Source: an uncultured Mariniplasma sp. (GTDB lineage: Bacteria; Bacillota_I; Bacilli_A; Acholeplasmatales; Acholeplasmataceae). From it: DNA of 64,000 nt. Each line of letters opens with the position of its first letter. Positions within the stretch are counted from its first letter, which is position 1. The stretch is taken from contig CAZPLF010000006.1 of NCBI GenBank assembly GCA_964587475.1, positions 1-64,000 on the forward strand, written 5' to 3'. The notes under the pieces are model-generated. The model saw only the letters and a program-made list of their open reading frames with translations. It searched no databases and was not told the origin of the DNA. Below, in pieces: positions 10,284 to 45,349 of this stretch. The translations under genes were made by a program, and so were the position numbers.

Positions 10284-10417
10284 TAAGATGACTGTGCACA
10301 CTAAACTTGAAGCAAACTTTTACAACCTACAAGTAGACAAATTTAGCGAGATAATCACAGTTCACATACATAGATCAAAGTCTGTCATTACTATTTCTAA
10401 AAAGGAGAATAAAAACA

Positions 10418-11125
10418 ATGCCAACACCGCATATTGATTTAGAAAATAAAGATTTAATAGCAAAAACAGTTTTAATGCCAGGAGATCCACTGAGAGCCAA
10501 GTATATTGCTGATAACTTCTTAACAAAAGTTGTTCAAATAAACGATGTCAGAAACATGTGGGGGTATACAGGTTATTTTGGTAAAAAGAAAGTTACCGTC
10601 ATGGGTTCTGGAATGGGTATGCCAAGTATTGGTATATACAGTTATGAACTGTTTAAGTTTTATGACGTTGAAAATATAATACGTATTGGATCATGTGGTG
10701 CTTATAGTGATGAATTAAAACTATATGATGTTGTCCTAGTTGAACAAGCATATTCTGAATCAAGTTATGCTAAGACAATGGGTGTTTCATCAAGAAAGAT
10801 TTTACCTGCAAATAAAACCCTTAATAATAAATTGATAAAAGCTGCAGAAAAAATCAATGTTAAATTACATCCTTCAGTTGTTCATTCTTCAGATGTTTTT
10901 TATCGATTGAAGAGTGACGAGTATAAAGAAATACATGAAAAATATGGCGCACAAGCCGTTGAAATGGAGTCATTTGCCTTATTTGCTAATGCTAAAGCAT
11001 TACATAAACGCGCAGCTTGTCTTCTAACCGTATCGGATTCCTTGGTGACACATGAGGCAACCTCATCACAGGAAAGACAAGAAGCATTTACAAAAATGAT
11101 GGAAGTTGCTTTAAATAGTATCTAA
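10418..11125 (+). CDS. deoD: Purine nucleoside phosphorylase, DeoD-type
   Basis: PNP family-1 motifs (MPGDPLRAKYIA, VMGSGMGMPS). 235 aa. Confidence 0.9.
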   Translation: MPTPHIDLENKDLIAKTVLMPGDPLRAKYIADNFLTKVVQINDVRNMWGYTGYFGKKKVTVMGSGMGMPSIGIYSYELFKFYDVENIIRIGSCGAYSDELKLYDVVLVEQAYSESSYAKTMGVSSRKILPANKTLNNKLIKAAEKINVKLHPSVVHSSDVFYRLKSDEYKEIHEKYGAQAVEMESFALFANAKALHKRAACLLTVSDSLVTHEATSSQERQEAFTKMMEVALNSI

Positions 11126-12324
11126 TGCTACTCATTAAAAATGATTTCAAAACGATACAATTCGCTGTCTACTTTACAGACTTAGACGAAGATGAAACAC
11201 GTGTGTATCGTTTTTTGTTGCCTAGATTATTAACATCACATACGAACCAATTACTCAATAAAACAATGATGAATGAAAAACTAGAAGATCTATATGGTGC
11301 CTACTTCAAATCACGCGTTGAACGTGTAGGCAATTTTTCTGTTGTAAGCATTATCTTAACCATTGTGGATCCTTTAATAGTTGAAGATGAACAGTTGATG
11401 AATCAAGCAATTGAACTTTTTAATCAAGTTCTTTACGATCATGATACTTTTGATAAGGATCTTTTCCTTGAAGAAAAAAGAATGGTGATTGAACAATGGG
11501 AAACGCTTCATGATAAGAAAAGATTGTATGCACAAACTAAATTTTATGAACATTTCTTCAAAGGTGATGCCTACGGAACACCTCTTTCAGGTAGTCTAGA
11601 GGACATAAAAAAATTAAACGTACAAAAACTAGAAAAATATTATAAAGAAGTATTTTTGAAAAATACAAAGAAATTCGTGGTAAATGGTAGAGTGAGTCGG
11701 GAAGATCAACTTAAACTTGAAAAAATGATGGCTCATGATTTAGAGAATAAGCATCCATTTGTAACATCATTTAGACCTGTAAGACCGCTACTTTTTATCG
11801 AAGAAGAAACTCAAATGAAGCAAGCAATTCTTAAACTGGGTTATCATTTTCCTATTTTCAGAGAAGATGAACACTACCATGCAGCTATTTTGTTAGATAC
11901 CATTTTAGGAGGTTATCCAGAAAGCAGGCTTTTTCAAGAGATTCGAGAAAAAGATGGATTGTGTTATGATATATCTTCTAACTATGATTACTATAAAGGC
12001 GTCATCATGATTAGTAGTGGTGTTGATCTTATTCAAAAAGATATGGCTTTGGAAGCAATCAAAAATTTAGTTTTAGACATGATTCTCAAAGGCGTTTCAG
12101 AAGAAGAGTTATTGCATGCAAAAGCATATTATACACATCAAATAATGAGTAGCCTTGACAATCAGTCTTTTTTAACAAAAAGAGCATTCATACGCGAGTT
12201 ACTCAATCATGATGAAACCATTGAAGAAAGACTCAATGCACTAAATAAAGTAACAATTGCTGATATTAAGATGCTTCTTAATATGATTACTTTAGATACT
12301 GTTTATGTACTTCACGGAAACTAA
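11125..12324 (+). CDS. M16-family peptidase, non-catalytic subunit (no HxxEH)
   Basis: 399 aa pitrilysin-like fold without the zinc-binding motif. Its likely partner is at 23263. Confidence 0.65.
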   Translation: MLLIKNDFKTIQFAVYFTDLDEDETRVYRFLLPRLLTSHTNQLLNKTMMNEKLEDLYGAYFKSRVERVGNFSVVSIILTIVDPLIVEDEQLMNQAIELFNQVLYDHDTFDKDLFLEEKRMVIEQWETLHDKKRLYAQTKFYEHFFKGDAYGTPLSGSLEDIKKLNVQKLEKYYKEVFLKNTKKFVVNGRVSREDQLKLEKMMAHDLENKHPFVTSFRPVRPLLFIEEETQMKQAILKLGYHFPIFREDEHYHAAILLDTILGGYPESRLFQEIREKDGLCYDISSNYDYYKGVIMISSGVDLIQKDMALEAIKNLVLDMILKGVSEEELLHAKAYYTHQIMSSLDNQSFLTKRAFIRELLNHDETIEERLNALNKVTIADIKMLLNMITLDTVYVLHGN

Positions 12325-12356
12325 ACATTAAAGGATAAATAAGTTTTATTTAAGAT

Positions 12357-12392
12357 ACTTTCATACTCTATTTGGTATGAAGGTTTTTTTAT
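12357..12392 (+). terminator. Rho-independent terminator
   Basis: CUUUCAUAC-loop-GUAUGAAGG hairpin followed by UUUUUUU. Confidence 0.7.
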
Positions 12393-12462
12393 TTATATAT
12401 GTAATTAAATATTCCAATATGAATGAAAATTCCACACATTTTATTAATATTTCATAGAAAGG

Positions 12463-12490
12463 TTGACAATACTGTGAAAAATGATATAAT
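12463..12490 (+). promoter_or_regulatory. Sigma-A type promoter for the BMC locus
   Basis: TTGACA at 12463-12468, a 16-nt spacer, and an extended -10 TGATATAAT at 12482-12490. Confidence 0.6.
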
Positions 12491-12554
12491 TAAGCCAAAT
12501 ATAGACGTGAATATATGAAAGAAAATTACTCAATACAACAAAGAGGTGCGATTA

Positions 12555-13580
12555 GTGATAAAAAATAAAGATATCGCGATACGATCTGGGGTTTCTGTTG
12601 CTACTGTTTCTAGAGTGATGAATCAAAGTGGTTATGTCAAAGATGAAACTAAGGATTTGGTGCTCAAAGCATTCAATGAACTGGTCAATGACGATCAGCT
12701 TTTAGTTCAATCGATAGCAAATGGAAAAACCAATCTCATAGGTGTTGTTGTTCCGGATATTTCAAATCCTTTTTTTGGTGAGGTCATCAAGGGTATATCA
12801 AGCATAGCTGATCAACACTCCGCTAGTTTGTTAGTCTGCAACACAGAAGAACAACTAGATAAGGAAATTAAGTATCTAGAACTGTTTAAGACAAATAACA
12901 TCAAAGGCTTAATTATCACTCCAAAAACAGACCAAGGTGTTTATAATTCAAAATACTTATATCAGCTTGAAGGATTAGGGGTTCCTATTGTCTTATTAGA
13001 TCGCGGTATCAATTTATCTCATTTTAATTCGGTTTTCGTCAACAATACATCAGGTTCTTTTGATGCAATCAATGCTTTGATTAATGAAGGCCACAAAAAT
13101 ATTGCAATAATTTCAGGACCGATGTCATCCAAACCAGGACGTGAAAGATTCTATGGTTATGAAAACGCCTTGAAAAACAATAATCTACCAGTGAATAAAG
13201 ATTATATCTTCTTTGGTGATTTTAAGCTACAAAGTGGTTATGAAATAACCAAAAAAATTCTGAATCTTGAACATAGACCGACTGCTATTTTTGCAGCAAA
13301 CAATATGATGGCTCAAGGATGTATAAAAGCTTTAGTTGAAAACAAATTATCAATTCCAAAAGATATGTCATTTATTAGCTTCGATGATGTTGACATGTTT
13401 GAAATTATGAATCTCAATATTTCAACAGTATCAAGACCAACTGAATTAATGGGTATTGTCGCTGCTGAAATGCTATTTGAACTAGTAGATCATAAACAAG
13501 AGAAGCATACATCCATTAAGGAAGTATTGCTAGAAACCAAACTTGTTTTAAGAGGTTCAGAAAAATTAGTTAAAAAATAA
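12555..13580 (+). CDS. LacI-family transcriptional regulator (HTH plus periplasmic-binding-fold sugar sensor)
   Basis: N-terminal HTH IAIRSGVSVATVSRVMNQ. GTG start at 12555 follows RBS AGAGG. Confidence 0.85.
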   Translation: MIKNKDIAIRSGVSVATVSRVMNQSGYVKDETKDLVLKAFNELVNDDQLLVQSIANGKTNLIGVVVPDISNPFFGEVIKGISSIADQHSASLLVCNTEEQLDKEIKYLELFKTNNIKGLIITPKTDQGVYNSKYLYQLEGLGVPIVLLDRGINLSHFNSVFVNNTSGSFDAINALINEGHKNIAIISGPMSSKPGRERFYGYENALKNNNLPVNKDYIFFGDFKLQSGYEITKKILNLEHRPTAIFAANNMMAQGCIKALVENKLSIPKDMSFISFDDVDMFEIMNLNISTVSRPTELMGIVAAEMLFELVDHKQEKHTSIKEVLLETKLVLRGSEKLVKK

Positions 13581-13592
13581 GGAGTAAACAAT

Positions 13593-14411
13593 ATGGAAAT
13601 TAACGACATCAAACAAATCGTGAGAGATGAACTCGTTACGAGCATTCTAGAATCTCAAGAATTCTTGATTGTGGGTAATTGGAAAATGAATAAAACAAAA
13701 GTTGAAGTCAATGCTTTTTTAGACGATATTGCTAATCATGATTTTGGTGATAAAAATACGGTTGTCATTCTACCTCCAAGTGCTTATCTTTATCTATTTG
13801 AAGATAAACTGAGATTTAGTAAAGTACTATACGGAACTCAAAATTTCTATCCAAAAGAAAACGGTGCATTTACAGGAGAATTTTCAGTAGACATGATGAA
13901 AGATTTTGGATGTAAGTTTGCACTTGCAGGACATTCCGAAAGAAGAGATATATTTATGGAATGTGATGCATTTACTGCTAAAAAAGTGAGAAGTTGTTTA
14001 GAAAATCAAATTAAACCAATTTTATGCATTGGTGAAAATCTAGATCAAAGACAAACAACAGATTATAAACAGTTTTTAATTGATCAACTCAAAAGATCTT
14101 TGGACCGCGTTGAAGGAAAAGATTTAAGTCAAGTCATTATTGCCTACGAACCAATTTGGGCGATCGGTACTGGAGAGACAGCAACACCAGAACAAGTTGA
14201 AGAAATACATATGCATTTAAGAAAGTTTTTAGTTCAACAATATGGATCTGAAATTGGAAAAGAAATTCCTTTATTATATGGTGGAAGTGTTAATGCCAAA
14301 AATGTTAAGGAGCTTGCACTTGCAGAAAGTGTTTCTGGATTCTTAATTGGTGGAGCAAGCTTAAACGCTCAAACATTCATTGAGATAAGCAATATCCTAA
14401 ACGGAAAATAA
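13593..14411 (+). CDS. tpiA: Triosephosphate isomerase paralog with an N-terminal extension of about 21 aa
   Basis: GNWKMN, LAGHSERR and YEPIWAIGTG motifs. There are 27 residues before GNWKMN, against about 6 in housekeeping TpiA. Confidence 0.88.
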   Translation: MEINDIKQIVRDELVTSILESQEFLIVGNWKMNKTKVEVNAFLDDIANHDFGDKNTVVILPPSAYLYLFEDKLRFSKVLYGTQNFYPKENGAFTGEFSVDMMKDFGCKFALAGHSERRDIFMECDAFTAKKVRSCLENQIKPILCIGENLDQRQTTDYKQFLIDQLKRSLDRVEGKDLSQVIIAYEPIWAIGTGETATPEQVEEIHMHLRKFLVQQYGSEIGKEIPLLYGGSVNAKNVKELALAESVSGFLIGGASLNAQTFIEISNILNGK

Positions 14412-14451
14412 TAGTTGTTCATTAAAAAATCCTATAGAAAGGTAGAAGAAT

Positions 14452-15315
14452 ATGGAAATCAAAAATATCGATCGACTTGTCGACAAAGTCGCAGCAAATA
14501 TTTTAGATAAACTGGATTTAAAAACTACATATGGCAACATCAATCATAAATCCTGTTTCATTCTAATACCAAATATGGGACTGGGGATGAAAGAATATAT
14601 CGAATACATCATTGAACACTATCAAGGATACGAACTTTATTTAGCATCAAGAGAAAATGGAGCGAATGTTGGAGATTTTAAAAACATCAAAACACTTGAA
14701 TTTGATATGAAAAACCAAAAATTCATTCATCTCTTAGATTCAGTTGAAAATATCATTGTCTTAGGATTGAAAATCAATCAAATGAAATCTATCATTAAAA
14801 CTGATGACGAAGATGATGTGAATCAACTCATCCTAGAGGGACTTCTCGCAAATAAACAAGTCAACGTGATGATGAACGCAAATGAACATATCTTTAGTAA
14901 ACTAAAAAATATTGTTACTGATTTAAGACATATGGGAGTTTATGTAACTAACATCCATCAAGTGAAAGCTTCTTCAATTGTTTCAAATGTAGAAATTGAA
15001 AAGACACATCATTTAAATTCTCAACAGGAACCAGATAGATCATGGGCGATAGCAACAAAGATTGCACCTGAAAAATTATATACAGCATCTTCTAAGTTGG
15101 AAAAAGAATGTCAACTCAATCCTTTTAAAGAATCAAACGATGTACTCATACCATCAAAAAATGAATTGATTACAGAAAGTTATGTGTTAAAACTTAAAGG
15201 CAGAGGAGTTAGAACAATGATTCTTGATAAGAAACATTTAATTACGCCACTTGCAAAAGATAAATTAAGAGAATATAAAATAGATATCAAATATATAGAG
15301 GAGGCAAAATCATGA
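14452..15315 (+). CDS. Hypothetical BMC-locus protein with an amphipathic N-terminus
   Basis: 287 aa with no recognisable motif. N-terminus NIDRLVDKVAANILDKL. Sits between the TIM and aldehyde dehydrogenase genes. Confidence 0.55.
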   Translation: MEIKNIDRLVDKVAANILDKLDLKTTYGNINHKSCFILIPNMGLGMKEYIEYIIEHYQGYELYLASRENGANVGDFKNIKTLEFDMKNQKFIHLLDSVENIIVLGLKINQMKSIIKTDDEDDVNQLILEGLLANKQVNVMMNANEHIFSKLKNIVTDLRHMGVYVTNIHQVKASSIVSNVEIEKTHHLNSQQEPDRSWAIATKIAPEKLYTASSKLEKECQLNPFKESNDVLIPSKNELITESYVLKLKGRGVRTMILDKKHLITPLAKDKLREYKIDIKYIEEAKS

Positions 15316-16736
15316 GCACACAAGATCTAATTGAAAGACTTAGAGCAGAAATGGAAGAAAAATATGGAAATAAGTCAACAAATACAACAACACCTCGTGA
15401 AGCTATCAATGTAGGAAGACTTGGATGTTATGAAAATGTATTGGATGCTATTGCAGCAGCAAAAGCATCACAAGAACAATTGATGGAACTCTCCATGAAA
15501 AAGCGTAACGAAATCATTGCAGCGATGAGAAAAGCAAGTTTAGATAATGCTGAAAAACTAGCAGTGATGGCACATGAAGAAACCGGATTTGGTAGAGTTG
15601 CTGATAAAATTATCAAAAATATTTTAGCAGCAGAAAAAACACCAGGCACTGAAGATCTCAGATCTCGCGCATACACTGGTGATGATGGTATGACTTTAGT
15701 TGAAATGGCACCATTCGGAGTTATTGGCTCTATTACGCCATCTACTAACCCTAGTTCAACAATCATTAATAACAGTATTAGCATGGTTGCAGCAGGTAAT
15801 GGTGTCGTATTCAATCCTCATCCAAGTGCTAAAAAAGTGACGCTTGAGACGATTTCTATCCTCAATCAAGCCATCCATAAAGTGGGTGGACCTAAAGAAC
15901 TTTTGACTGCACCCATTGATCCAACCATGGAAACCAGCAAGGTCATCATGACGCATAAAGACATTAGAATGTTAGCTGTTACTGGTGGTGAAGCAGTTGT
16001 TGAAGTTGCTATGAGAAGCGGTAAGAAAGTCATTGCTGCTGGTCCAGGTAATCCTCCAGTGATTGTTGATGAAACAGCAAATATTAAGAAAGCTGCTAAT
16101 GATATCCTAAGAGGTTCAAGCTTTGATAACAATATCTTGTGTACTGCAGAAAAAGAAGCCTTTATTCTTAATAGCGTATTTAATGAGCTTAGAAATGAAA
16201 TGATTAGACTTGGAGCTTATGAACTAAAGCACCATGAAATAGATATCGTCACAAAAGAAGTGTTCATCAAGAATAATCAAGGTGAAACAGTAGTTAACAG
16301 AAAATATGTTGGCAAAAATGCTTCAGAGATTTTAAAAGCGTGTAAGATTCCAGTGAATCAAGATGTTAAGTTGATTCTTGCTGAAGTTGATGATTCTCAT
16401 CCATTTGTAAATATAGAAATGTTGATGCCAGTATTGGCATTAGTCAGAGTCTATTCGGTTGATGAAGCTATTGAAAAAGCAGTAGCTGCTGAAGCTGGAA
16501 GACATCACTCAGCCATGATGCATTCAGAAAGCGTTACGAACCTTACAAAAGCCGCACGCGCATTAGACACAACAATTTTTGTGAAAAATGCACCATCATT
16601 TGCTGGATTAGGTATCGAAGGAGAAGGTTTCACAACCTTAACCATTGCAACCCCAACAGGTGAAGGTTTAACCTCAGCTAGAAGTTTTACAAGAATTAGA
16701 AGATGTACTTTATCAGGCGGATTTAGAATTATTTAA
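15312..16736 (+). CDS. CoA-acylating aldehyde dehydrogenase (EutE/PduP family)
   Basis: ALDH fold with catalytic ILCTAEKE. The N-terminal peptide DLIERLRAEMEE resembles an encapsulation peptide. Confidence 0.85.
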   Translation: MSTQDLIERLRAEMEEKYGNKSTNTTTPREAINVGRLGCYENVLDAIAAAKASQEQLMELSMKKRNEIIAAMRKASLDNAEKLAVMAHEETGFGRVADKIIKNILAAEKTPGTEDLRSRAYTGDDGMTLVEMAPFGVIGSITPSTNPSSTIINNSISMVAAGNGVVFNPHPSAKKVTLETISILNQAIHKVGGPKELLTAPIDPTMETSKVIMTHKDIRMLAVTGGEAVVEVAMRSGKKVIAAGPGNPPVIVDETANIKKAANDILRGSSFDNNILCTAEKEAFILNSVFNELRNEMIRLGAYELKHHEIDIVTKEVFIKNNQGETVVNRKYVGKNASEILKACKIPVNQDVKLILAEVDDSHPFVNIEMLMPVLALVRVYSVDEAIEKAVAAEAGRHHSAMMHSESVTNLTKAARALDTTIFVKNAPSFAGLGIEGEGFTTLTIATPTGEGLTSARSFTRIRRCTLSGGFRII

Positions 16737-16757
16737 TGAAAAATAGGAGTGGATAAT

Positions 16758-18071
16758 ATGTCTATTGATTATATCCAAAGAATCAAAGAAATAGGGGTTG
16801 TCGGAGCTGGTGGTGCTGGTTTTCCAACACACGTCAAATTAAACAGTAAAGCTAAAATTGTCATTATCAATGGTGCTGAATGCGAGCCTCTGCTTAGAGT
16901 TGATCAACAATTGATGGAATTTTATCCCCAAGATGTTATAGCTGGATTAAAAATTGCAATGGCTCAAACTGGAGCATCTCAAGGTGTGATTGGCTTAAAG
17001 GGAAAGTATAAAACTGCAATCTTGAAACTCGAAGAACTGATTAAAGATGAAAGTTCAATAGAGATCAAGATTATAGGTGACTATTATCCCGCTGGCGATG
17101 AACAACAACTTGTTTATGAAGTCACCAAGAGAGTTGTTCCACTCATGGGTATTCCACTTGATGTGGGTGCTGTTGTCATTAATGTACTAACAGCAATTAA
17201 TATTGCGCGCAATAAGCCAGTTACTGAAAGAGTTGTTACAGTCACTGGAGTAGTGAAGAAACCACAAACGTTAATTGTTCCTGTGGGAACACCATTTCGT
17301 GAATTGATTGAAGCATGTGAAGGCCCTACTGACGAAAAGAACTTTAGTATCGTTGTTGGAGGACCTATGATGGGAAAAGTTGAATCCAATTGGGATACAC
17401 CCGTATCAAAAGTAACTGGTGGAATCATTGTCCTGCCAAATGATCAATATGTGATTGTTAAAAAGACAAGAAAAACCGAAACCGATCTTCAGTTAACAAA
17501 AGCGATTTGTTGCCAGTGTTCATTATGTACCGAGATGTGTCCAAGGAATATCATCGGACTCAATACAGAACCCCATAAGGTTATGAGAGGACTTGCCAAT
17601 GAAGATCCATCGACATTAGGTGCTATCGGTTCAGTCGTGTCTTGTTGTGACTGTGGATTATGCAGCATCTATGCATGTCCAATGGATTTAGATCCAGGTA
17701 AAATAACGAATTTGGTTAAGCAGAGCTTACTTAGAAAAGGTGCTAAAACCGAAAAGGTCATTCCTTATGAAGTTGATCCCTTAAGAGATAGCAAGAAGGT
17801 CCCAACAAAAAGGCTTATTGCAAGACTAGAATTATTAGATTATAATGTTGCAGCTCCCTTGAATTTCAATATATTTGAGACAAAGGCTGTAAAGGTTTTA
17901 TTAAAGCAACATATTGGTGTTGATGCAACACCAATTAAAAAGATTGGTGATACTGTTACGAAAGGTACATTAATTGCAACTTGTTATGATAAATTAGGTG
18001 CTAATGTTCATGCGAGCATCGATGGGCGCATTACAGATATTACTGATAAGTATATAGAAATACATGCATAA
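16758..18071 (+). CDS. PduS/RnfC-family flavin and 2x[4Fe-4S] oxidoreductase
   Basis: GAGGAGFPT nucleotide-binding site. Two Cys clusters: CCQCSLCTEMCP and CCDCGLCSIYACP. Confidence 0.8.
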   Translation: MSIDYIQRIKEIGVVGAGGAGFPTHVKLNSKAKIVIINGAECEPLLRVDQQLMEFYPQDVIAGLKIAMAQTGASQGVIGLKGKYKTAILKLEELIKDESSIEIKIIGDYYPAGDEQQLVYEVTKRVVPLMGIPLDVGAVVINVLTAINIARNKPVTERVVTVTGVVKKPQTLIVPVGTPFRELIEACEGPTDEKNFSIVVGGPMMGKVESNWDTPVSKVTGGIIVLPNDQYVIVKKTRKTETDLQLTKAICCQCSLCTEMCPRNIIGLNTEPHKVMRGLANEDPSTLGAIGSVVSCCDCGLCSIYACPMDLDPGKITNLVKQSLLRKGAKTEKVIPYEVDPLRDSKKVPTKRLIARLELLDYNVAAPLNFNIFETKAVKVLLKQHIGVDATPIKKIGDTVTKGTLIATCYDKLGANVHASIDGRITDITDKYIEIHA

Positions 18072-18085
18072 GGAGGAACTATGTT

Positions 18086-18631
18086 ATGGAAGCATTAGGC
18101 ATGCTCGAACTAAATAGTATTGCACGAGGTATTGAAGCTGGAGATACTGCGATTAAAACTGCTAATGTTAAATTAATTGGTGCTTATGCAGCTTGTCCTG
18201 GTAAATTTGTTGTGATGATAAGAGGTGAGGTTGCTGCTGTAAAAAGTGCCATTCAAGCTGGAGCTATCATCGCAGGTAAATCACTGATTAAAGATATCGT
18301 GATAGCAAATATACATGATCAAGTATTTTCAGCATTAAACTGTACAACAGAAATTGATCCAAAAGGTGCAGTTGGTATTATAGAAACCTATTCACTCGCA
18401 ACAGCTGTCTTAATATCTGATGCTGCCGTTAAGGCGGCAAGCGTTGAGTTATTGGAGATTAGATTAGGACGTGGACTTGGTGGAAAAGCATTTACCGTTT
18501 TGACTGGTGATGTGAGTAGCGTCAAAGCCGCAGTTGAAGCAGCTGTTATTGCCAGTAAAAATGATGGACTTTTAGCCCATACAGCAGTAATTCCAAGAAT
18601 TAGCAAGGAAATGTTACAAACATTGATTTAA
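18086..18631 (+). CDS. Tandem-domain BMC shell protein (BMC-T, PduT-like)
   Basis: Two BMC domains in 181 aa. Cys in AACPGKF sits at the position of the PduT pore 4Fe-4S ligand. Confidence 0.85.
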
Positions 18632-18656
18632 AAATAAAATAAGGGAGAATAAGAAA

Positions 18657-18932
18657 ATGGTAGTTGAAGCATTAGGATTAATCGAAACAAGAGGATTTGT
18701 AGGAGCTATTGAAGCTGCAGATGCAATGGTTAAAGCAGCAAATGTTAAACTTGTTGGAAAAGAAAAATCAGGTAGTGGATTAGTCGCAATTATGGTTCGT
18801 GGTGATGTTGGTGCCGTCAAAGCAGCAACTGAAGCTGGTGCTGAAGCAGCACGTAGAGTTGGAGAATTAGTATCAGTTCATGTGATCCCTAGACCACATG
18901 CAGATGTAGAAGACTTGCTTAGTAAGCTTTAA
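18657..18932 (+). CDS. BMC-H hexameric shell protein (PduA/EutM-like) 1
   Basis: [11 protein letters not shown]...[12 protein letters not shown] canonical BMC domain. Confidence 0.95.
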
Positions 18933-18963
18933 AAAAATAGATTAGAATAGGAGAATTAAAATT

Positions 18964-19236
18964 ATGAAAGAAGCATTAGGATTAATTGAAACAAGAGGAT
19001 TTGTTGCAGCAATTGAAGCTGCAGATGCAATGGTCAAAGCAGCAAATGTTAAACTAATTGGCAGAGAAAAATCAGGTAGTGGATTAGTTGCTATGATGGT
19101 TCGTGGAGATGTCGGTGCCGTCAAGGCAGCAACAGAAGCTGGCGCTGAAGCAGCGCGTAGAGTTGGAGAATTAGTATCAGTTCATGTGATCCCAAGACCA
19201 CATGCAGATGTTGAAGAATTACTCAACAATCTATAA
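18964..19236 (+). CDS. BMC-H hexameric shell protein 2
   Basis: Near-identical paralog of the previous gene. Confidence 0.95.
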
Positions 19237-19251
19237 AAAAGGAGAAAGAAA

Positions 19252-19560
19252 ATGAAAGAAGCATTAGGATTAATCGAAACTAGAGGTTTTGTCGCAGCAA
19301 TTGAAGCAGCAGACGCAATGGTTAAGGCTGCAAATGTAAGACTTATCGGAAAAGAAAAGTCAGGTAGTGGATTAGTAGCTATGATGGTTCGTGGTGATGT
19401 CGGTGCCGTCAAGGCAGCAACTGAAGCTGGCGCTGAAGCAGCTCGCAGAGTTGGCGAATTAGTATCAGTACATGTTATTCCAAGTCCACATGCAGATGTA
19501 GAAGAATTATTAAGTGCGCTTAAAGAATCACCTGCAAAAGTCGTCAAAGTAGCAAAATAA
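19252..19560 (+). CDS. BMC-H hexameric shell protein 3
   Basis: Paralog with a short C-terminal tail [13 protein letters not shown]. Confidence 0.95.
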
Positions 19561-19610
19561 TTTTTTGACAATAATTTGTGAATAAATCTATACAGAAAGG
19601 AGAAAACAAA

Positions 19611-19880
19611 ATGGTAGAAGCATTAGGTTTGATCGAAACTAGAGGATTTGTTAGTGCCGTCGAAGCTGCAGACGCAATGGTCAAAGCTGCAAATGTAAGA
19701 CTCATTGGAAAAGAAAAATCAGGCAGTGGGTTAGTCGCAGTTATGGTTCGTGGTGATGTAGGTGCCGTCAAGGCAGCTACTCAAGCTGGAGCTGAAGCAG
19801 CTCGCCGTGTCGGTGAGCTTGTTTCCGTACATGTTATTCCAAGACCACATGCAGATGTTGAAGAATTATTAAAGAAATAA
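19611..19880 (+). CDS. BMC-H hexameric shell protein 4
   Basis: Paralog. RBS AGGAG is 9 nt upstream of ATG 19611. The ORF-track start at 19578 is too long. Confidence 0.93.
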
Positions 19881-19889
19881 AAAGATAAA

Positions 19890-20675
19890 GTGAAAAGAGC
19901 TGAAATTATGGAATTAGATAAATTAATAGAAAGAATTGCTAATGAAATCTATAGCAAAATCGCAAAAGAAGACAATGGTTCATCAAGCATTAAAGTAAAT
20001 GACAATAGTGATCTTGCTAAAATGATTGATCATACATTGTTGAAACCAGAAGCAACAGAAGAAGATATTAAGAAGGTTTGTGAAGAAGCATTACAATATA
20101 AGTTTAAATCTGTTTGTGTAAACACACACTATGTTGCTTTAGTTTCACGTCTTTTGGCTGGATCTAGTGTTTTAACTTGTGGTGTTGTAGGATTCCCATT
20201 AGGTGCGATGACTACAAGAGCTAAAGTAGATGAAACTAGTGATGCGATTAAGAGTGGTGCACATGAAATCGATATGGTTATCAATATTGGTGCACTTAAA
20301 TCTGGCAATTGGAATATTGTCAAAAGTGATATTGAAGGTGTTGTCAATGTAGCAAGAGGTCGGGCGATAGTTAAAGTTATTTTGGAAACATCATTATTAA
20401 CTGATGAAGAAAAAATAAGAGCTTGTACAATTGCTAAAATGGCTGGTGCTGATTTTGTCAAAACCTCAACTGGATTTAATAAAGGTGGAGCAACAATCGA
20501 AGATATTACATTAATGCGTAAAGTTGTAGGACCACATATGGGTGTTAAAGCTTCTGGTGGTGTTCGTGATACTGAAACTGCGAGAGCAATGATTGCTGCT
20601 GGTGCAACAAGAATTGGAACAAGTTCAGGAATAAATATCATTAAGGGCTCTAAGCCTGCGACTGGTACTTATTAA
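19890..20675 (+). CDS. deoC: Deoxyribose-phosphate aldolase with an N-terminal extension of about 38 aa (SPU-type signature enzyme)
   Basis: Aligns along the full length with class-I DERA ([28 protein letters not shown]). Carries an extra N-terminal segment [19 protein letters not shown] plus a linker. The start may instead be ATG 19908. Confidence 0.9.
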
Positions 20676-20697
20676 TACCTAGAAAAGAGGAAATTAT

Positions 20698-21018
20698 ATG
20701 TATGCTGCGAGAATTATTGGAACTGTTGTGTGTACGCAAAAGGATCCAAGTATGAACAGTTTAAAGATGCAGGTTGTACAACCTGTTAACATCATTACCT
20801 TTAAAGATGAGGGTAAACCTGCAGTAGCAATTGATGCTGTTGGAGCTGGTGATTCAGAAATTGTTTTAGTTGTAGCTGGTAGTTCTGCAAGACTCACTGA
20901 ACTTACACAAAATAAACCTACTGATGCAACGATTATGGCAATTGTTGATTATGTCGATATTGAAGGTAAAAATGTCTTCAGTAAAAATAAAAAACAACCA
21001 GAAGTAGGTTCAAAATAA
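20698..21018 (+). CDS. BMC-P pentameric vertex protein (EutN/PduN/CcmL) 1
   Basis: 106 aa EutN fold. Opens with RIIGTVV. Confidence 0.85.
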   Translation: MYAARIIGTVVCTQKDPSMNSLKMQVVQPVNIITFKDEGKPAVAIDAVGAGDSEIVLVVAGSSARLTELTQNKPTDATIMAIVDYVDIEGKNVFSKNKKQPEVGSK

Positions 21019-21091
21019 ATTAAGACAAATCATCAGATTCAAAATGAAGATTAATATGCAATTTTTGCATATTATATAAGGAGATGTAACA

Positions 21092-21553
21092 ATGAAAATT
21101 GCTATTGGTTGTGACCATGGTGGTTATGAATTAAAGGAAAAAGCAAAAAAATATATTACAGAAGAATTAAAAATGCAAGTACAAGATTTTGGCACCTATA
21201 ATAAAAATAGATGTGATTATCCAGACTATGCATTTTTGGTTGCTTCTGCAGTTTCACTTAAAAAATGTGATTTCGGCATCATGATTGATGGCGCTGGTAT
21301 TGGTTCTTCCATGATGGCAAACAAAGTACCTGGCGTACTTGCTGCATGTGCAAATGAAGTCTATACAGCACATAATAGTCGCGAACATAACGGAGCTAAC
21401 GTTTTAACATTGGGTAGCTATGTTATAGGTGAAGGTGTCGCAAAAGAAATCATTAAAACATTCCTAAGTACCAAATTTGAAGGTGAAAGAAATTTACAAC
21501 GTGTAAAGAGTATTTTAGAAATCGAAAAAAGAATTTTAAGCAATAGGGAGTGA
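21092..21553 (+). CDS. rpiB: Ribose-5-phosphate isomerase B / LacAB-family sugar-phosphate isomerase
   Basis: MKIAIGCDHGGYELKE N-terminus. 153 aa. Confidence 0.88.
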   Translation: MKIAIGCDHGGYELKEKAKKYITEELKMQVQDFGTYNKNRCDYPDYAFLVASAVSLKKCDFGIMIDGAGIGSSMMANKVPGVLAACANEVYTAHNSREHNGANVLTLGSYVIGEGVAKEIIKTFLSTKFEGERNLQRVKSILEIEKRILSNRE

Positions 21554-21557
21554 TACT

Positions 21558-21830
21558 ATGCAAATGGCAAAAGTGATCGGTACTGTGACATCAACAGTCA
21601 AGATCAAAGATATTAAAGGTGTATCTTTACTAGTGATTCAACCTGTTAATTCAAAGTATGAATCACTAGGTGCACCTATTGTTGCCGGAGATAATTACGG
21701 TGCAGGTGTTGGTGAATATGTTTTCTATTCGAAAAGTAAAGAAGGAGCAATGAATTTACCGATTCCTACTTCATGTGTTGATGCTGGGATAGTTGGTATC
21801 ATTGATTATGTCTTTAGAAAAGATGAATAA
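21558..21830 (+). CDS. BMC-P vertex protein 2
   Basis: 90 aa EutN fold. Confidence 0.82.
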   Translation: MQMAKVIGTVTSTVKIKDIKGVSLLVIQPVNSKYESLGAPIVAGDNYGAGVGEYVFYSKSKEGAMNLPIPTSCVDAGIVGIIDYVFRKDE

Positions 21831-21851
21831 CATTAAGAATGAGGTGTTATT

Positions 21852-22148
21852 ATGCAACTAGCAATAGTCGTAGGGAATTTGGTTTCAACACATAAAAATG
21901 AATTAATCAAAGGAAAAAAACTTTTGTTTGTCCAACCTATTGATGAAAAATTGATCCCATTTGGTGATGAAATGCTTGCTGTTGATGCTGTAGGAGCAGG
22001 CATAGGTGATGTCGTTGTCATTCTGCATGAAGGTACGTCAGCAAGACAGGTTACCCATGCAGAAAGCAAATACTCACCAATCGAATTGTGTATTGCAGGC
22101 ATTGTCGATTCGATTAAAACTGAAGGTAGCTATAAAACTTTTGATTAG
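21852..22148 (+). CDS. BMC-P vertex protein 3
   Basis: 98 aa EutN fold. Confidence 0.82.
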   Translation: MQLAIVVGNLVSTHKNELIKGKKLLFVQPIDEKLIPFGDEMLAVDAVGAGIGDVVVILHEGTSARQVTHAESKYSPIELCIAGIVDSIKTEGSYKTFD

Positions 22149-22160
22149 TAGGATGATAAA

Positions 22161-23162
22161 ATGAACCTTTTAGATCATATAATTGAACAAGCAAAAAAGA
22201 ATATTAAAACGATTGTTCTTCCCGAAGGGAAGGATCAAAGAACCATTACCGCTGCAAGAAAACTTCAAAGTCAGAATATTGTAAATGTGATTGTTTTAAT
22301 TAATCGTGCTGATATGAATGATGAGACCACAAAGTTGCAAAGTGAAGGTATCAAAGTCATTGTTTTGGAACAATCTGAACAATTGAATTTGTACAGTTCA
22401 CAATTATACGAATTAAGAAAAGAAAAAGGAATGACAAAAGAAGAAGCTGATAAGCTTGTTCTCAATACTGTTTATCATGGCGTGATGATGGTTAAGAACC
22501 AAGATGCTGATGGTATGGTTGCTGGTGCAATTACTGCATCAGGTGATGTCTTAAGACCAGCACTTCAAATTCTTAAAACGGCAGAAAACGTAAAGATTGT
22601 GTCGTCGTTTTTCTTAATGGAAATTCCAAATTCCAAACATGTAATGAATAAAGTGTTTGCTTTTTCGGATTGTGGTCTAGTGGTTAATCCAAACGCAGAT
22701 GAATTAGCGGAAATTGCAATTCAAACTGCAAAATCATTTGCATATCTAACACATGAAGATCCTCGAGTAGCTATGCTTTCCTATTCAACTTATGGAAGTG
22801 CAAAAGGAGAGCTTGTTGATAAGGTTGTTACTGCAACAAAAAATGTACAATCGAAATATCCTAATCTTAAAATTGATGGCGAATTACAACTAGATGCTGC
22901 AATTGTACCTTCTGTTGCTCAATTAAAAGCACCATTAAGTAGAGTTGCAGGATATGCTAATGTATTGATATTTCCCGATTTGCAATCTGGAAATATAGGA
23001 TATAAATTAGTAGAGAGATTGGCTAATGCAGCAGCTTATGGACCAATCACTCAAGGATTGAGCAAACCTGTCAATGATCTTTCAAGAGGATGTTCAGCAG
23101 AAGATATTGTTGCTGTTGTGGCAATTACTGCTCTTCAAACACAATCAGGTATAGTTCATTAA
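22161..23162 (+). CDS. pta: Phosphate acetyltransferase (Pta/EutD type)
   Basis: 333 aa PTA_PTB fold. Motifs IVLPEGKDQR, AFSDCG, DLSRGCSAED. Confidence 0.88.
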   Translation: MNLLDHIIEQAKKNIKTIVLPEGKDQRTITAARKLQSQNIVNVIVLINRADMNDETTKLQSEGIKVIVLEQSEQLNLYSSQLYELRKEKGMTKEEADKLVLNTVYHGVMMVKNQDADGMVAGAITASGDVLRPALQILKTAENVKIVSSFFLMEIPNSKHVMNKVFAFSDCGLVVNPNADELAEIAIQTAKSFAYLTHEDPRVAMLSYSTYGSAKGELVDKVVTATKNVQSKYPNLKIDGELQLDAAIVPSVAQLKAPLSRVAGYANVLIFPDLQSGNIGYKLVERLANAAAYGPITQGLSKPVNDLSRGCSAEDIVAVVAITALQTQSGIVH

Positions 23163-23262
23163 TAAAATCCCAAGCACTAATTCAATTTGAAGAATTTTAG
23201 GAGAAAGGAATATATAGTCTAACTCTAATTAATGATTACAGTTATGAGTATACAATGTCAAA

Positions 23263-24537
23263 ATGATAAAAAAAACATTTGAACGCTTTAATGAATCACT
23301 TTATATAATCAAACTGAGAAATGGTATGCAAGTTCATATATTGCCTAAAGAAGATCCTTATTTCACGACATATGTTGAAGCAAGTGTTCCTTTTGGAGCT
23401 CTAGATTTATCATATAAAACTGATGATAAATTAATCAATACACCATATGGAACAGCACACTTCTTAGAACATAAAATATTTGCAATGCCTGATGGAGATG
23501 CATTTGCGCATTTTTCTGCTTTGGGTGTTGATGCAAATGCTATGACCTCATATGATCAAACGTCTTATTTATTTATTGCTACTCAAAATATGATTTCTGC
23601 TTTAGAGTATCTATTTGAAATGATTGACACGCCTTTTTTTACAAATGAAAATGTCGATCAAGAGAAACGCATTATCGCAGAAGAACTAAAGATGTATCTA
23701 GATGATCCGAATGTTGTCATGCATAACCAACTAATAGAGATGATGTATCATGCTCACCCTCTAAAGTATGATATTGGAGGAACGCTTGAATCAATTATGG
23801 ATATTACTCCAGAAATTCTTAAAGATGTCTATGATAAATTTTATAATCCCTCAAATCGGTTAATTACAATTGCTGGTAAAGTAGATATTAAAGAACTACA
23901 AATATTCTTTAAAAACTATGATTTAAAAAATCCAGTAAAATATAAAAAAGTAAAGACTATTTATCCGAAAGAACCTATGCGATTATACCAAAAATCAATG
24001 ATAGAAATCAAAGATGTTGGAATTGATAAGCTGATGCTTGGTATTAAACTTAGTCCAAGTAAGTCAAATCAAAGAGATCAAGTGAAAAAAGAAATGGCAG
24101 TTTCAATGCTTTTGAATATTCTTTTAGGCCCATCTTCTCAAACTTATGCAAAATTACTTGAAGATAAGTTGATCAATCAAAGTTTTTATGTCAACACAAC
24201 ATTTGAAAAAAAAGCAGAAAATATTATTGTATTTGCTGAAACGAAAAGAATTTATAAACTGAAGAAAATCTTAATCGATATTCTAACTGTTCAAGCTTTG
24301 AGTTTGGTAACTCAAGAAGCTTTTGATCGGTATAAGAAAGTTTATTTAGGCCAATTCATATTTGCTCTAAACAATCTAGAAACAAAAGCGTATCTTTATG
24401 GTAAATATTTCCATATGGGATCTTCTTTGTTTGATGTTGTCGATTTACTTAAAGAAATAGAATATGAAGACGTACTTCAAGAACTTAAATCAATACAAAG
24501 AAAATATATTGCTGTACTAATACATAAAAAGGCTTAA
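23263..24537 (+). CDS. M16-family zinc peptidase, catalytic subunit
   Basis: HFLEH inverted zincin motif. 424 aa. Confidence 0.75.
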   Translation: MIKKTFERFNESLYIIKLRNGMQVHILPKEDPYFTTYVEASVPFGALDLSYKTDDKLINTPYGTAHFLEHKIFAMPDGDAFAHFSALGVDANAMTSYDQTSYLFIATQNMISALEYLFEMIDTPFFTNENVDQEKRIIAEELKMYLDDPNVVMHNQLIEMMYHAHPLKYDIGGTLESIMDITPEILKDVYDKFYNPSNRLITIAGKVDIKELQIFFKNYDLKNPVKYKKVKTIYPKEPMRLYQKSMIEIKDVGIDKLMLGIKLSPSKSNQRDQVKKEMAVSMLLNILLGPSSQTYAKLLEDKLINQSFYVNTTFEKKAENIIVFAETKRIYKLKKILIDILTVQALSLVTQEAFDRYKKVYLGQFIFALNNLETKAYLYGKYFHMGSSLFDVVDLLKEIEYEDVLQELKSIQRKYIAVLIHKKA

Positions 24538-37577: not shown

Positions 37578-37625
37578 TAGAGTTTGAATCTTGTGTATTT
37601 TATATATTCATGATATGATATGAAT

Positions 37626-37716
37626 GATCACTACGGGGAGCTTAAATGCTGAGAGGACGAAAGTCGACCCGCGAACCTGATCTGGATCATACCAGCGGAG
37701 GGATAGTCGACATAAT
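37626..37716 (+). ncRNA. TPP (THI-box) riboswitch
   Basis: ACGGGGAGC...GCUGAGAGG...ACCCGCGAACCUGAUCUGGAUCAUACCAGCGGAGGGA matches the THI-element consensus (CUGAGA, ACCUGAUCUGGAUAAUGCCAGCG). Confidence 0.9.
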
Positions 37717-37785
37717 TAATTGTCATTTACTATCAATTTCTTGGTTCATCCATAGAAATTTTTTATTTTCTAAGGAGAAAAAGAA

Positions 37786-44918: not shown

Positions 44919-45349
44919 GATGCATTGTTCAAAGAGTTGTTCAAGCTCTAGTTGAAGTGGAAAATGAAGTTATAGGATCAATTGAAAAAGGGTTTTTAGT
45001 TTACGTGGGCATCCATCATTCGGATGATGAAAAAACAGTTGAAAAGATGGCTCAAAAAGTGATTTCATTACGCATATTTGAAGATGAACAAGAGAAAATG
45101 AATCTCAATTTGAAACAGGTTGATGGACAAATATTATCCATTTCTCAATTTACACTTTATGGTGATACCAAAGGTAATAATAGACCATCATTTATCGAAG
45201 CTGCTAAACCAGAGCAAGCTATAAAACTCTATAATCTTTTTAATGAAAAATTAGAAGAACATTGTCATGTGGAAAAAGGATTGTTTGGTGCCCATATGAA
45301 AATCAAATCAATCAATGATGGACCAGTAACAATCCTCATTGAAATGTAA
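44915..45349 (+). CDS. dtd: D-aminoacyl-tRNA deacylase
   Basis: MRCIVQRV N-terminus and the SQFTLY motif. 144 aa. Confidence 0.9.
   Translation: MRCIVQRVVQALVEVENEVIGSIEKGFLVYVGIHHSDDEKTVEKMAQKVISLRIFEDEQEKMNLNLKQVDGQILSISQFTLYGDTKGNNRPSFIEAAKPEQAIKLYNLFNEKLEEHCHVEKGLFGAHMKIKSINDGPVTILIEM

What the first reader, a model, noticed from the sequence alone, without database searches (positions are those of the whole stretch)
11125..24537. The BMC island is wedged between the two genes of an M16 peptidase pair
One M16 gene, lacking HxxEH and so non-catalytic, ends at 12324. Its likely catalytic partner, which has HFLEH, starts at 23263. These two subunit genes are normally adjacent, as with ymfF and ymfH. 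Between them lie a terminator, a fresh promoter and the whole 10.7 kb BMC operon. This suggests the BMC locus is a horizontally acquired insertion.
Basis: inference. Interest (0 to 1): 0.6.

Follow-up and report, generated by a model that had tools for sequence, protein, structure and literature searches.

The report
Microcompartment operon inserted inside peptidase gene pair
A 10.9 kb self-contained operon for a protein-shelled organelle that probably digests the sugar of DNA has been inserted exactly between two normally overlapping peptidase-subunit genes in one small clade of wall-less environmental bacteria; it is a clean, well-resolved example of something already known to happen, namely that such operons move as units.

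Summary

- **The gene pair.** The YmfF-like M16 gene (11125-12324) has no HxxEH. The YmfH-like gene (23263-24537) has HFLEH.
- **Relatives.** In 84 of 84 related loci these two genes overlap or abut (-32 to +11 nt). None has microcompartment genes nearby.
- **The insert.** In the window, 10,938 bp (12319-23256) separate the pair. This holds a terminator, a perfect promoter, a LacI regulator and 16 genes of an SPU-type (DeoC/RpiB) microcompartment.
- **Damage at the site.** The break falls inside the GGAGG ribosome-binding site of the second gene and rewrites the first gene's C-terminus (HGGQND* to HGN*).
- **Age.** A sister lineage shares both junctions, so this was one older event.
- **Mobility.** The same LacI-to-Pta cassette (75-80% nt identity) sits in four other unrelated chromosomal contexts, including strain zrk1.
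- **Missing hallmarks.** There is no GC or codon shift, no flanking repeats and no mobility gene.

Horizontal origin is therefore likely but not proven; relocation within the genome is not excluded. Both peptidase genes remain under purifying selection. This is a tidy but ordinary case: a new member of a known kind.

The parts
10418..11125 (+). deoD (purine-nucleoside phosphorylase), the conserved left neighbour of the M16 pair
   Evidence: TIGR00107 275 bits. It is syntenic in all Acholeplasmataceae loci.
11125..12324 (+). M16_1: YmfF-like non-catalytic M16B subunit, with its C-terminus altered by the insertion (HGN* instead of HGGQND*)
   Evidence: Pfam M16_C only. YfmF_fam 274 bits against a cutoff of 285. 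No HxxEH; R274/Y281 pair present. C-terminus comparison.
12319..23256 (+). The inserted segment (10,938 bp) relative to the uninserted junction of relatives. The right edge is uncertain by about 6 nt.
   Evidence: Junction alignment against L002, L003 and L004. The sister-lineage junctions L103 and L112 are shared.
12357..12391 (+). Intrinsic terminator-like hairpin plus U7, now ending the deoD-M16_1 transcript
   Evidence: Fold -13.7 kcal/mol, z = -5.1.
12463..12490 (+). Cassette promoter TTGACA-16-(TG)TATAAT. Cassette-to-cassette DNA homology starts here (12479-12485).
   Evidence: 12/12 match. blastn homology limits. Conserved 40-60 nt upstream of lacI among cassettes.
12546..13580 (+). LacI-family repressor (probable start GTG 12555). 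Its best family matches are PurR, RbsR and CytR, all below cutoff.
   Evidence: Gene call in L106.
13593..14411 (+). Triosephosphate isomerase with a 24-aa N-terminal extension that looks like an encapsulation peptide
   Evidence: N-terminal sequence.
14452..15315 (+). 287-aa protein of unknown function (weak TIGR02536 'eut_hyp' match) with an encapsulation-peptide-like N-terminus
15312..16736 (+). CoA-acylating aldehyde dehydrogenase (EutE/PduP type)
   Evidence: NF011927 636 bits. Homologues listed.
16749..18071 (+). PduS/RnfC-like flavin and Fe-S electron-transfer protein
   Evidence: Complex1_51K, Fer4_17, RnfC_N and SLBB domains. TIGR01945.
18086..18631 (+). BMC-T, a tandem-domain PduT-like shell protein
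   Evidence: Two BMC domains. TIGR02526 131 bits, below cutoff.
18657..19880 (+). Four BMC-H hexamer shell genes: 18657-18932, 18964-19236, 19252-19560 and 19578/19611-19880
   Evidence: PF00936 in each.
19890..20675 (+). Deoxyribose-phosphate aldolase DeoC, the signature enzyme (probable start ATG 19908), with an N-terminal extension of about 35 aa
   Evidence: TIGR00126 288 bits. N-terminal sequence. It is 45-55% identical to the housekeeping DeoC of relatives.
20698..21018 (+). BMC-P pentamer (vertex) protein 1
   Evidence: PF03319.
21092..21553 (+). RpiB-type sugar-phosphate isomerase, the second SPU signature enzyme
   Evidence: PF02502 176 bits.
21558..22148 (+). BMC-P proteins 2 and 3 (21558-21830 and 21852-22148)
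   Evidence: PF03319.
22161..23162 (+). Pta-type phosphotransacetylase, the last gene of the cassette. DNA homology to other cassettes ends at 23145.
   Evidence: TIGR00651 381 bits. blastn limits.
23163..23262 (+). 100-nt spacer with no terminator and no Shine-Dalgarno sequence. It is homologous to the spacer in sister lineage L112.
   Evidence: Fold z = -0.66.
23263..24537 (+). M16_2: YmfH-like catalytic M16B subunit (HFLEH at nt 23458-23472)
   Evidence: It retains every residue that is invariant across 40 homologues.

Best explanation
A self-contained 10.6 kb cassette was inserted once, by a route that left no site-specific signature. The cassette comprises its own promoter, a LacI-family regulator and 16 genes for an SPU-type bacterial microcompartment.

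The insertion hit the 8-nt overlap between the ymfF-like and ymfH-like genes of a heteromeric M16B peptidase. It happened in the common ancestor of this Mariniplasma-like Acholeplasmataceae lineage and one sister lineage. The cassette most likely came from another environmental Mollicute of similar base composition.

Shown consequences:
- The translational coupling of the pair is lost, because the GGAGG ribosome-binding site inside the first gene's 3' end was destroyed.
- The first gene's last residues were replaced, and it is now followed by a terminator.
- The second gene sits 100 nt downstream of pta with no terminator or recognisable promoter in between.

Inferred consequence: the second gene is probably read through from the LacI-controlled operon.

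Inferred function, from family knowledge:
- The acylating aldehyde dehydrogenase traps acetaldehyde as acetyl-CoA.
- Pta regenerates CoA and yields acetyl-phosphate.
- TIM and RpiB handle the sugar phosphates.
- The PduS-like protein, with the PduT-like shell protein, may move electrons out of the shell.

This pathway fits the surrounding nucleoside-catabolism genes (deoD, thymidine phosphorylase, a phosphopentomutase-like gene).
For: - **Empty site.** In all 84 related loci that carry both genes, the two genes are -32 to +11 nt apart. Synteny SurE-...-DeoD-M16_1-M16_2-SSB-PadR-...-M20 is conserved, and no shell genes lie within 10 kb.
- **Junction.** Relatives read CAT GGA GGT CAA AAT GAT TAA, overlapping the downstream ATG. 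In the window, homology stops at 12318 and resumes at about 23257.
- **Shared event.**
  - L103 (M16_1 86% aa) continues into a LacI gene 91% identical to the window's, against 75-79% for other cassettes.
  - L103 flanking DNA matches window 10741-12325 and 12417-13296.
  - L112, from the same sample, shows the pta 3' end, a homologous spacer, then M16_2.
  - An AldDH 93% identical occurs in the same samples.
  - Cassette dS (AldDH 0.74) is similar to host dS (DeoD 0.76).
- **Cassette as a unit.** The same gene order at 75-80% nt identity, bounded at 12479 and 23145, occurs in four other contexts: L082, L086, L089 and zrk1 CP134194.1.
- **Not an artefact.** L001, L091 and L106 reproduce the junctions.
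- **Pair still functional.** dN/dS is 0.06-0.08 for M16_1 and 0.067 for M16_2, similar to uninserted lineages.
- **Function.** Pfam and NCBIfam assignments. Encapsulation-peptide-like N-termini on TIM, the 287-aa protein, AldDH and DeoC. SPU definition and proposed DNA-sugar catabolism (PMC8217296, PMC4207490). The M16B heterodimer concept for YmfF/YmfH (PMC8960859).
Against: - GC is 35.3% in the insert against 33.8% outside, GC3 is slightly lower in the insert, and codon-usage distance is within the range of control blocks.
- No direct or inverted repeats link the two junctions here or around any other copy of the cassette.
- The insert holds no integrase, transposase or tRNA gene.
- The cassette was not found on plasmids or viral contigs.
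- No donor was identified, and I could not check whether the nearest uninserted relative (L002) carries the cassette elsewhere.
- The host tree of window, L002 and L104 is an unresolved near-trichotomy.
- dS values are near saturation.
- Co-transcription of M16_2 with the operon, encapsulation and substrate are all untested inferences.
Confidence: 0.85

Rival explanations
1. Relocation within the genome rather than horizontal acquisition. The cassette was already resident elsewhere in the ancestor's chromosome, as in the L082-type or L086-type context, and moved into the M16 junction in this clade.
For: - The insert shows no compositional difference.
- Other cassette copies come from low-GC (32-34%) contigs, and named carriers are Mycoplasmatota.
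- Cassette protein identity between the window and L082 (77-93%, apart from the poorly conserved 287-aa protein at 51%) is in the same range as host protein identity between the window and L002 (59-92%).
Against: - No second copy or remnant is visible in the 64 kb window.
- Five different contexts with no shared flanks suggest repeated independent arrivals.
- Microcompartment loci are widely documented as horizontally transferred units (PMC8217296, PMC4207490).
Confidence: 0.2
2. Ancestral arrangement with loss. The microcompartment locus between the two M16 genes is the old state, and relatives deleted it.
For: The near-trichotomy of window, L002 and L104 does not by itself exclude L002 being nested within the inserted clade.
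Against: - It would need dozens of independent, base-perfect deletions. Each would have to restore an overlapping stop/start, the GGAGG site and the HGGQND C-terminus.
- That restored arrangement is also found in Clostridia and Saccharibacillus.
Confidence: 0.02
3. Assembly chimera. The two M16 genes are adjacent in reality and the metagenome assembler joined unrelated contigs.
For: The window comes from a metagenome-type assembly.
Against: - Both junctions recur in independent assemblies from another sample (L091 and L106).
- They also recur, diverged by about 17%, in a sister lineage from JGI samples (L103 and L112).
- The M16_1 C-terminus itself is altered.
Confidence: 0.01

Closest known systems
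SPU (sugar-phosphate utilisation) bacterial microcompartment loci (Axen 2014, PMC4207490; Sutter 2021, PMC8217296)
   Same: - DeoC-type aldolase plus RpiB as signature enzymes, with an acylating AldDH, TIM and a PduS-like protein.
- BMC-H paralogues, a BMC-T and a triplet of BMC-P proteins.
- Predicted catabolism of deoxyribose-5-phosphate from DNA.
- Patchy distribution attributed to horizontal transfer.
   Different: - It uses a Pta-type phosphotransacylase (PF01515). The SPU loci first described mostly had PduL.
- The host is an Acholeplasmataceae Mollicute.
- I did not assign one of the seven SPU subtypes.
- No alcohol dehydrogenase is present for NAD+ recycling.
Same cassette in Mycoplasmatota bacterium zrk1 (CP134194.1) and in uncultured contigs L082, L086 and L089
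   Same: Identical gene order from lacI to pta. AldDH is 81-86% identical and DNA identity is 75-80% over 10.6 kb.
   Different: - Each sits in a different chromosomal neighbourhood, and none lies between M16 genes.
- The number of BMC-H copies varies from 3 to 5.
- pta is split in L089.
YmfF/YmfH-type heteromeric M16B peptidases (B. subtilis ymfF-ymfH; PttP1/PttP2, PMC8960859; named YfmF/YfmH 'EF-P 5-aminopentanol modification-associated' by NCBIfam)
   Same: One subunit carries HXXEH. The other lacks it and carries an R/Y pair seven residues apart. The genes are adjacent in all relatives.
   Different: - Here the two genes are 10.9 kb apart and are no longer translationally coupled.
- No ymfI-like gene follows.
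- The substrate in Mollicutes is unknown.
Microcompartment reported in Ca. Izemoplasma/Izimaplasma HR2 (cited in 10.1101/528695)
   Same: A wall-less, DNA-degrading relative of Mollicutes with a microcompartment proposed to handle aldehydes from deoxyribose.
   Different: I did not compare the sequences directly. That microcompartment was found in one of several Izemoplasma genomes, which again indicates patchy distribution.

Membership tests
SPU-type bacterial microcompartment locus | DeoC-type aldolase (PF01791) encoded in the locus | tested here: met
   19890-20675: PF01791 at 8.5e-20 and TIGR00126 at 288 bits.
SPU-type bacterial microcompartment locus | RpiB-type isomerase (PF02502) encoded in the locus | tested here: met
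   21092-21553: PF02502 at 176 bits.
SPU-type bacterial microcompartment locus | Shell genes of all three classes (BMC-H, BMC-T, BMC-P) | tested here: met
   Four single-domain PF00936 proteins, one tandem PF00936 protein and three PF03319 proteins.
SPU-type bacterial microcompartment locus | Acylating aldehyde dehydrogenase and phosphotransacylase core | tested here: met
   AldDH NF011927 at 636 bits. The phosphotransacylase is Pta-type (TIGR00651, 381 bits), not PduL.
SPU-type bacterial microcompartment locus | Cargo enzymes carry encapsulation peptides and are packaged in a shell | tested here: inconclusive
   Helix-like N-terminal extensions are seen on TIM, the 287-aa protein, AldDH and DeoC. 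No structural or experimental test was done.
YmfF/YmfH heteromeric M16B peptidase | One subunit with the HXXEH zinc motif | tested here: met
   HFLEH at residues 66-70 of M16_2. YfmH_fam 354 bits, above the 250 cutoff.
YmfF/YmfH heteromeric M16B peptidase | Partner subunit lacking HXXEH, with an R/Y substrate-binding pair | tested here: met
   No H..EH in M16_1; R274 and Y281 are seven residues apart. The YfmF_fam score of 274 is just below the cutoff of 285.
YmfF/YmfH heteromeric M16B peptidase | The two genes are adjacent and co-transcribed | tested here: not met
   They are 10,938 nt apart here. They are adjacent in 84 of 84 relatives, so the failure comes from the insertion and is not evidence against partnership.
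YmfF/YmfH heteromeric M16B peptidase | Physical heterodimer with peptidase activity | not testable with these tools
   Shown only for homologues (PMC8960859).
Classical genomic island or integrative element | Integrase or transposase gene, or a tRNA/att target | tested here: not met
   Every gene in 12319-23256 is regulatory, shell or metabolic. The target is a protein-gene overlap.
Classical genomic island or integrative element | Flanking direct repeats | tested here: not met
   Only chance 8-9-mers link the junctions. None were found around the other cassette copies.
Classical genomic island or integrative element | Deviating base composition or codon usage | tested here: not met
   GC 35.3% against 33.8%; RSCU distance 0.047, within the control range (maximum 0.053).
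Classical genomic island or integrative element | Present/absent polymorphism with an intact empty site in relatives | tested here: met

The most novel reading that the evidence does not exclude
The promoter-lacI-to-pta SPU cassette is a discrete module that moves repeatedly between or within environmental Mollicute genomes. It has at least five landing sites. It carries no mobility gene, repeat or compositional trace, which implies an unrecognised or purely recombinational transfer route.

In this clade it may have taken over all deoxyribose-phosphate cleavage. The housekeeping deoC that normally sits two genes upstream, next to deoD, is missing. If no other copy exists, a core step of nucleoside catabolism has been moved into an organelle, and the catalytic M16 subunit has been placed under a sugar-responsive operon.
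Probability: 0.15. Interest if true: 0.5.

Novelty: new member of a known kind. Interest (0 to 1): 0.3.

Why it matters
- It gives a near base-resolved 'before and after' for the acquisition of a complete metabolic organelle operon by a small-genome, wall-less bacterium.
- It shows that a translationally coupled two-subunit enzyme can survive being split for a long evolutionary time.
- It adds to the evidence that SPU microcompartments travel as plug-and-play units among DNA-scavenging environmental Mollicutes.
- It does not change the current understanding of microcompartments or of gene transfer.

Tried and rejected
- **GC, GC3 and codon usage across the insert.** No usable signal.
- **Repeats at and across the junctions, and around four other cassette copies.** Nothing beyond chance. 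This includes a 9-mer, AAAATGATA, at 12478 and 23260, which I judged to be chance in AT-rich DNA.
- **Cassette on plasmids (PLSDB, distant blastn).** Only generic shell-gene matches.
- **Cassette on viral contigs.** Nothing found.
- **Rfam scan of the whole window.** Only a TPP riboswitch far from the locus.
- **Taxonomic names for cassette-bearing contigs through cluster members.** No names returned.
- **Linking cassette-bearing contigs to hosts through their flanks.** No informative homology to the window.
- **NJ tree to order window, L002 and L104.** Unresolved.
- **Remnant of housekeeping deoC in 10284-10417.** Only a weak 25-aa tblastx match, not convincing.
- **ThiS/ThiF of the sister lineage.** No homologue in the window.
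- **Limits reached.** I therefore could not test whether uninserted relatives carry the cassette elsewhere.


Full report
**What is in the sequence**

The region lies on the + strand of a low-GC (about 34%) window. Its proteins are closest to Acholeplasmataceae/Mariniplasma genomes assembled from metagenomes.

The gene at 11125-12324 encodes a 399-aa protein. It matches only the inactive Peptidase_M16_C domain and the NCBIfam YfmF family (274 bits, just under the 285 cutoff). It has no HxxEH motif but has an R274/Y281 pair.

The gene at 23263-24537 encodes a 424-aa protein with Peptidase_M16 and M16_C domains. It scores 354 bits on the YfmH family, above the cutoff of 250. HFLEH lies at residues 66-70, and the protein keeps every residue that is invariant in 40 homologues.

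Homologues of this pair, YmfF/YmfH and PttP1/PttP2, act as heteromeric M16B peptidases. One subunit carries HXXEH and the other carries the R/Y pair (PMC8960859).

Between the two genes lie, in order:
- a strong hairpin plus U-run at 12357-12384 (-13.7 kcal/mol, z = -5.1);
- a perfect extended promoter at 12463-12490;
- a LacI-family regulator;
- TIM;
- a 287-aa unknown protein;
- an acylating aldehyde dehydrogenase;
- a PduS/RnfC-like protein;
- one tandem BMC-T and four BMC-H shell genes;
- DeoC;
- three BMC-P genes with RpiB after the first of them;
- Pta.

**Are the two M16 genes normally adjacent?**

I scanned one genome per species with an alignment of YmfH-like homologues and kept 80 loci. 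A metagenome scan with the YmfF-like protein added 11 more.

In all 84 loci that contain both genes, the stop of the first and the start of the second are -32 to +11 nt apart. Most overlap by 4 or 8 nt.

Across Acholeplasmataceae the neighbourhood SurE - unknown - YczE-like - (DeoC) - DeoD - M16_1 - M16_2 - SSB - PadR - HAAS - DUF4097 - M20 is conserved. None of these loci has shell, AldDH or PduS genes within 10 kb. Adjacency also holds in Clostridia MAGs and Saccharibacillus. The window is the exception.

**The junctions**

Close relatives read ...CAT GGA GGT CAA AAT GAT TAA. The downstream ATG lies inside AAT GAT, and GGAGG serves as its ribosome-binding site.

In the window, homology ends after CAC GGA (12318) and resumes at about GTCAAA ATG (23257). 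The insert is therefore 12319-23256, or 10,938 bp. This has three effects:
- The first protein now ends HGN* instead of HGGQND*.
- The ribosome-binding site of the second gene is gone.
- The second gene lies 100 nt after pta, with no terminator-like structure (z = -0.66) and no good promoter in between.

It is therefore probably read through from the new operon. That last step is an inference.

**Not an artefact, and not unique to one genome**

Independent assemblies from other samples reproduce the pta-to-M16_2 junction (L091, 99.6% identity) and the M16_1-to-lacI junction (L106).

A second lineage, about 17% diverged in DNA, shares the event:
- L103/L104 have an M16_1 that is 86% identical and ends HGE* at the same codon. 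It is followed by lacI that is 91% identical to the window's, whereas other cassettes give 75-79%.
- In that lineage an extra 1.3 kb carrying reverse-strand ThiS- and ThiF-like genes replaces window 12326-12416.
- L112, from the same sample, shows the pta 3' end, a homologous spacer and M16_2.
- An AldDH 93% identical to the window's occurs in the same samples.
- Synonymous divergence of the cassette (AldDH dS 0.74) resembles that of the host gene deoD (0.76).

This fits one ancestral insertion followed by vertical descent. The nearest uninserted lineage (L002/L092/L107, 85-88% aa identity) has the intact overlapping junction. The order of the three lineages is not resolved.

**The cassette is a unit found elsewhere**

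The closest AldDH homologues (76-93% identity) include proteins named from Mycoplasmatota strains zrk1 and WC30 and from Tenericutes MAGs. Bacilli and Clostridia follow at 64-70%.

Their contigs carry the same gene order from lacI to pta, but in four other unrelated neighbourhoods:
- between a GH18 enzyme with an unknown protein and an unknown protein with a NERD protein (L082);
- between an ABC-F ATPase and ribosomal protein L25 with a hydrogenase (L086);
- after a defence-like region and before an AI-2E transporter (L089);
- between a cold-shock gene and beta-propeller genes in strain zrk1, CP134194.1.

DNA identity to the window is 75-80% from 12479 (inside the promoter) to 23145 (just before the pta stop). 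Nothing beyond those limits is shared.

**What is missing**

- The insert is compositionally unremarkable. GC is 35.3% against 33.8%, GC3 is 0.223 against 0.247, and codon-usage distance is 0.047 against a control maximum of 0.053. The other cassette-bearing contigs have 32-34% GC, so a donor of similar composition would leave no mark.
- No direct or inverted repeats link the junctions here or in the other loci.
- No integrase or transposase is present.
- The cassette is not found on plasmids or viral contigs.

The insertion is therefore firmly established, but its mechanism is unknown. A horizontal source is likely rather than proven. Relocation of a resident copy remains possible, because I could not search the relatives' whole genomes.

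**Function**

By the published definition, a locus with DeoC-type aldolase, RpiB, acylating AldDH and shell proteins is an SPU-type microcompartment. These are proposed to catabolise deoxyribose-5-phosphate from DNA (PMC8217296, PMC4207490).

- Helix-like N-terminal extensions on TIM, the 287-aa protein, AldDH and DeoC look like encapsulation peptides.
- The regulator's best matches, PurR, RbsR and CytR, are nucleoside or ribose regulators, although all are below cutoff.
- The neighbourhood contains deoD directly upstream, and thymidine phosphorylase and a phosphopentomutase-like gene downstream.
- The phosphotransacylase is Pta-type rather than PduL.
- No alcohol dehydrogenase is present. The PduS-like and PduT-like proteins may provide the redox outlet, but this is an inference.

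**State of the split peptidase**

Both genes are intact. Their dN/dS values (0.06-0.08 for M16_1 and 0.067 for M16_2) are like those of uninserted lineages (0.04-0.11). dS is near saturation, so these figures are rough. The pair has tolerated being separated.

**Verdict**

Horizontal transfer of microcompartment loci as self-sufficient modules is well established in the literature, and SPU loci are known from 26 phyla. This is a well-resolved new example, not a new kind of thing.

Noticed in passing
window 10284-10417; compare L003 7420-8070 and L008 7438-8067: Most Acholeplasmataceae relatives have a housekeeping deoC immediately upstream of deoD. It is absent at that spot in the window and in L002/L092, L004, L005/L097, L098 and L104. 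The only DeoC in the 64 kb window is the microcompartment copy. I do not know whether these genomes have another deoC or a cassette elsewhere.
   Followed up: partly
L103 1765-2711 (- strand); L086 17716-17964 (+ strand): An 82-aa ThiS/MoaD-like protein ending in GG, paired with a ThiF-like E1 in L103, lies between M16_1 and lacI in the sister lineage. A 49% identical homologue follows pta directly in the L086-L088 cassettes. It may be an occasional accessory of the cassette. It has no homologue in the window.
   Followed up: partly
L089 2-162, 1527-1687, 4178-4338, 5762-5922; window 44915-45349 (dtd): Upstream of the cassette in the 1.49 Mb contig are four direct repeats of 161-226 nt (78-85% identity) that resemble the 3' end of the D-aminoacyl-tRNA deacylase gene. 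They separate small modules (AbiEii, an AAA_14 ATPase, a shikimate-kinase-like protein). This looks like serial integration at the dtd 3' end.
   Followed up: partly
L089 17461-18463: The pta gene of that cassette is split into two 169-aa reading frames. This could be a frameshift, a pseudogene or a sequencing error.
   Followed up: no
window 37624-37720 (+): A TPP riboswitch (RF00059, 63 bits), the only Rfam match in the window.
   Followed up: no
window 12546 vs 12555; 19578 vs 19611; 19890 vs 19908; 16749 vs 16758: The mechanical ORF starts (GTG) for lacI, the fourth BMC-H, deoC and the PduS-like gene are probably too far upstream. Public gene calls on identical contigs use the downstream starts, and 12555 is preceded by AGAGGTG.
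   Followed up: partly
window 23263-24537 and downstream: NCBIfam links the YfmF/YfmH families to EF-P 5-aminopentanol modification, but no ymfI-like reductase gene follows the pair here or in the Acholeplasmataceae loci. SSB follows instead. The role of the pair in these organisms may therefore differ.
   Followed up: no
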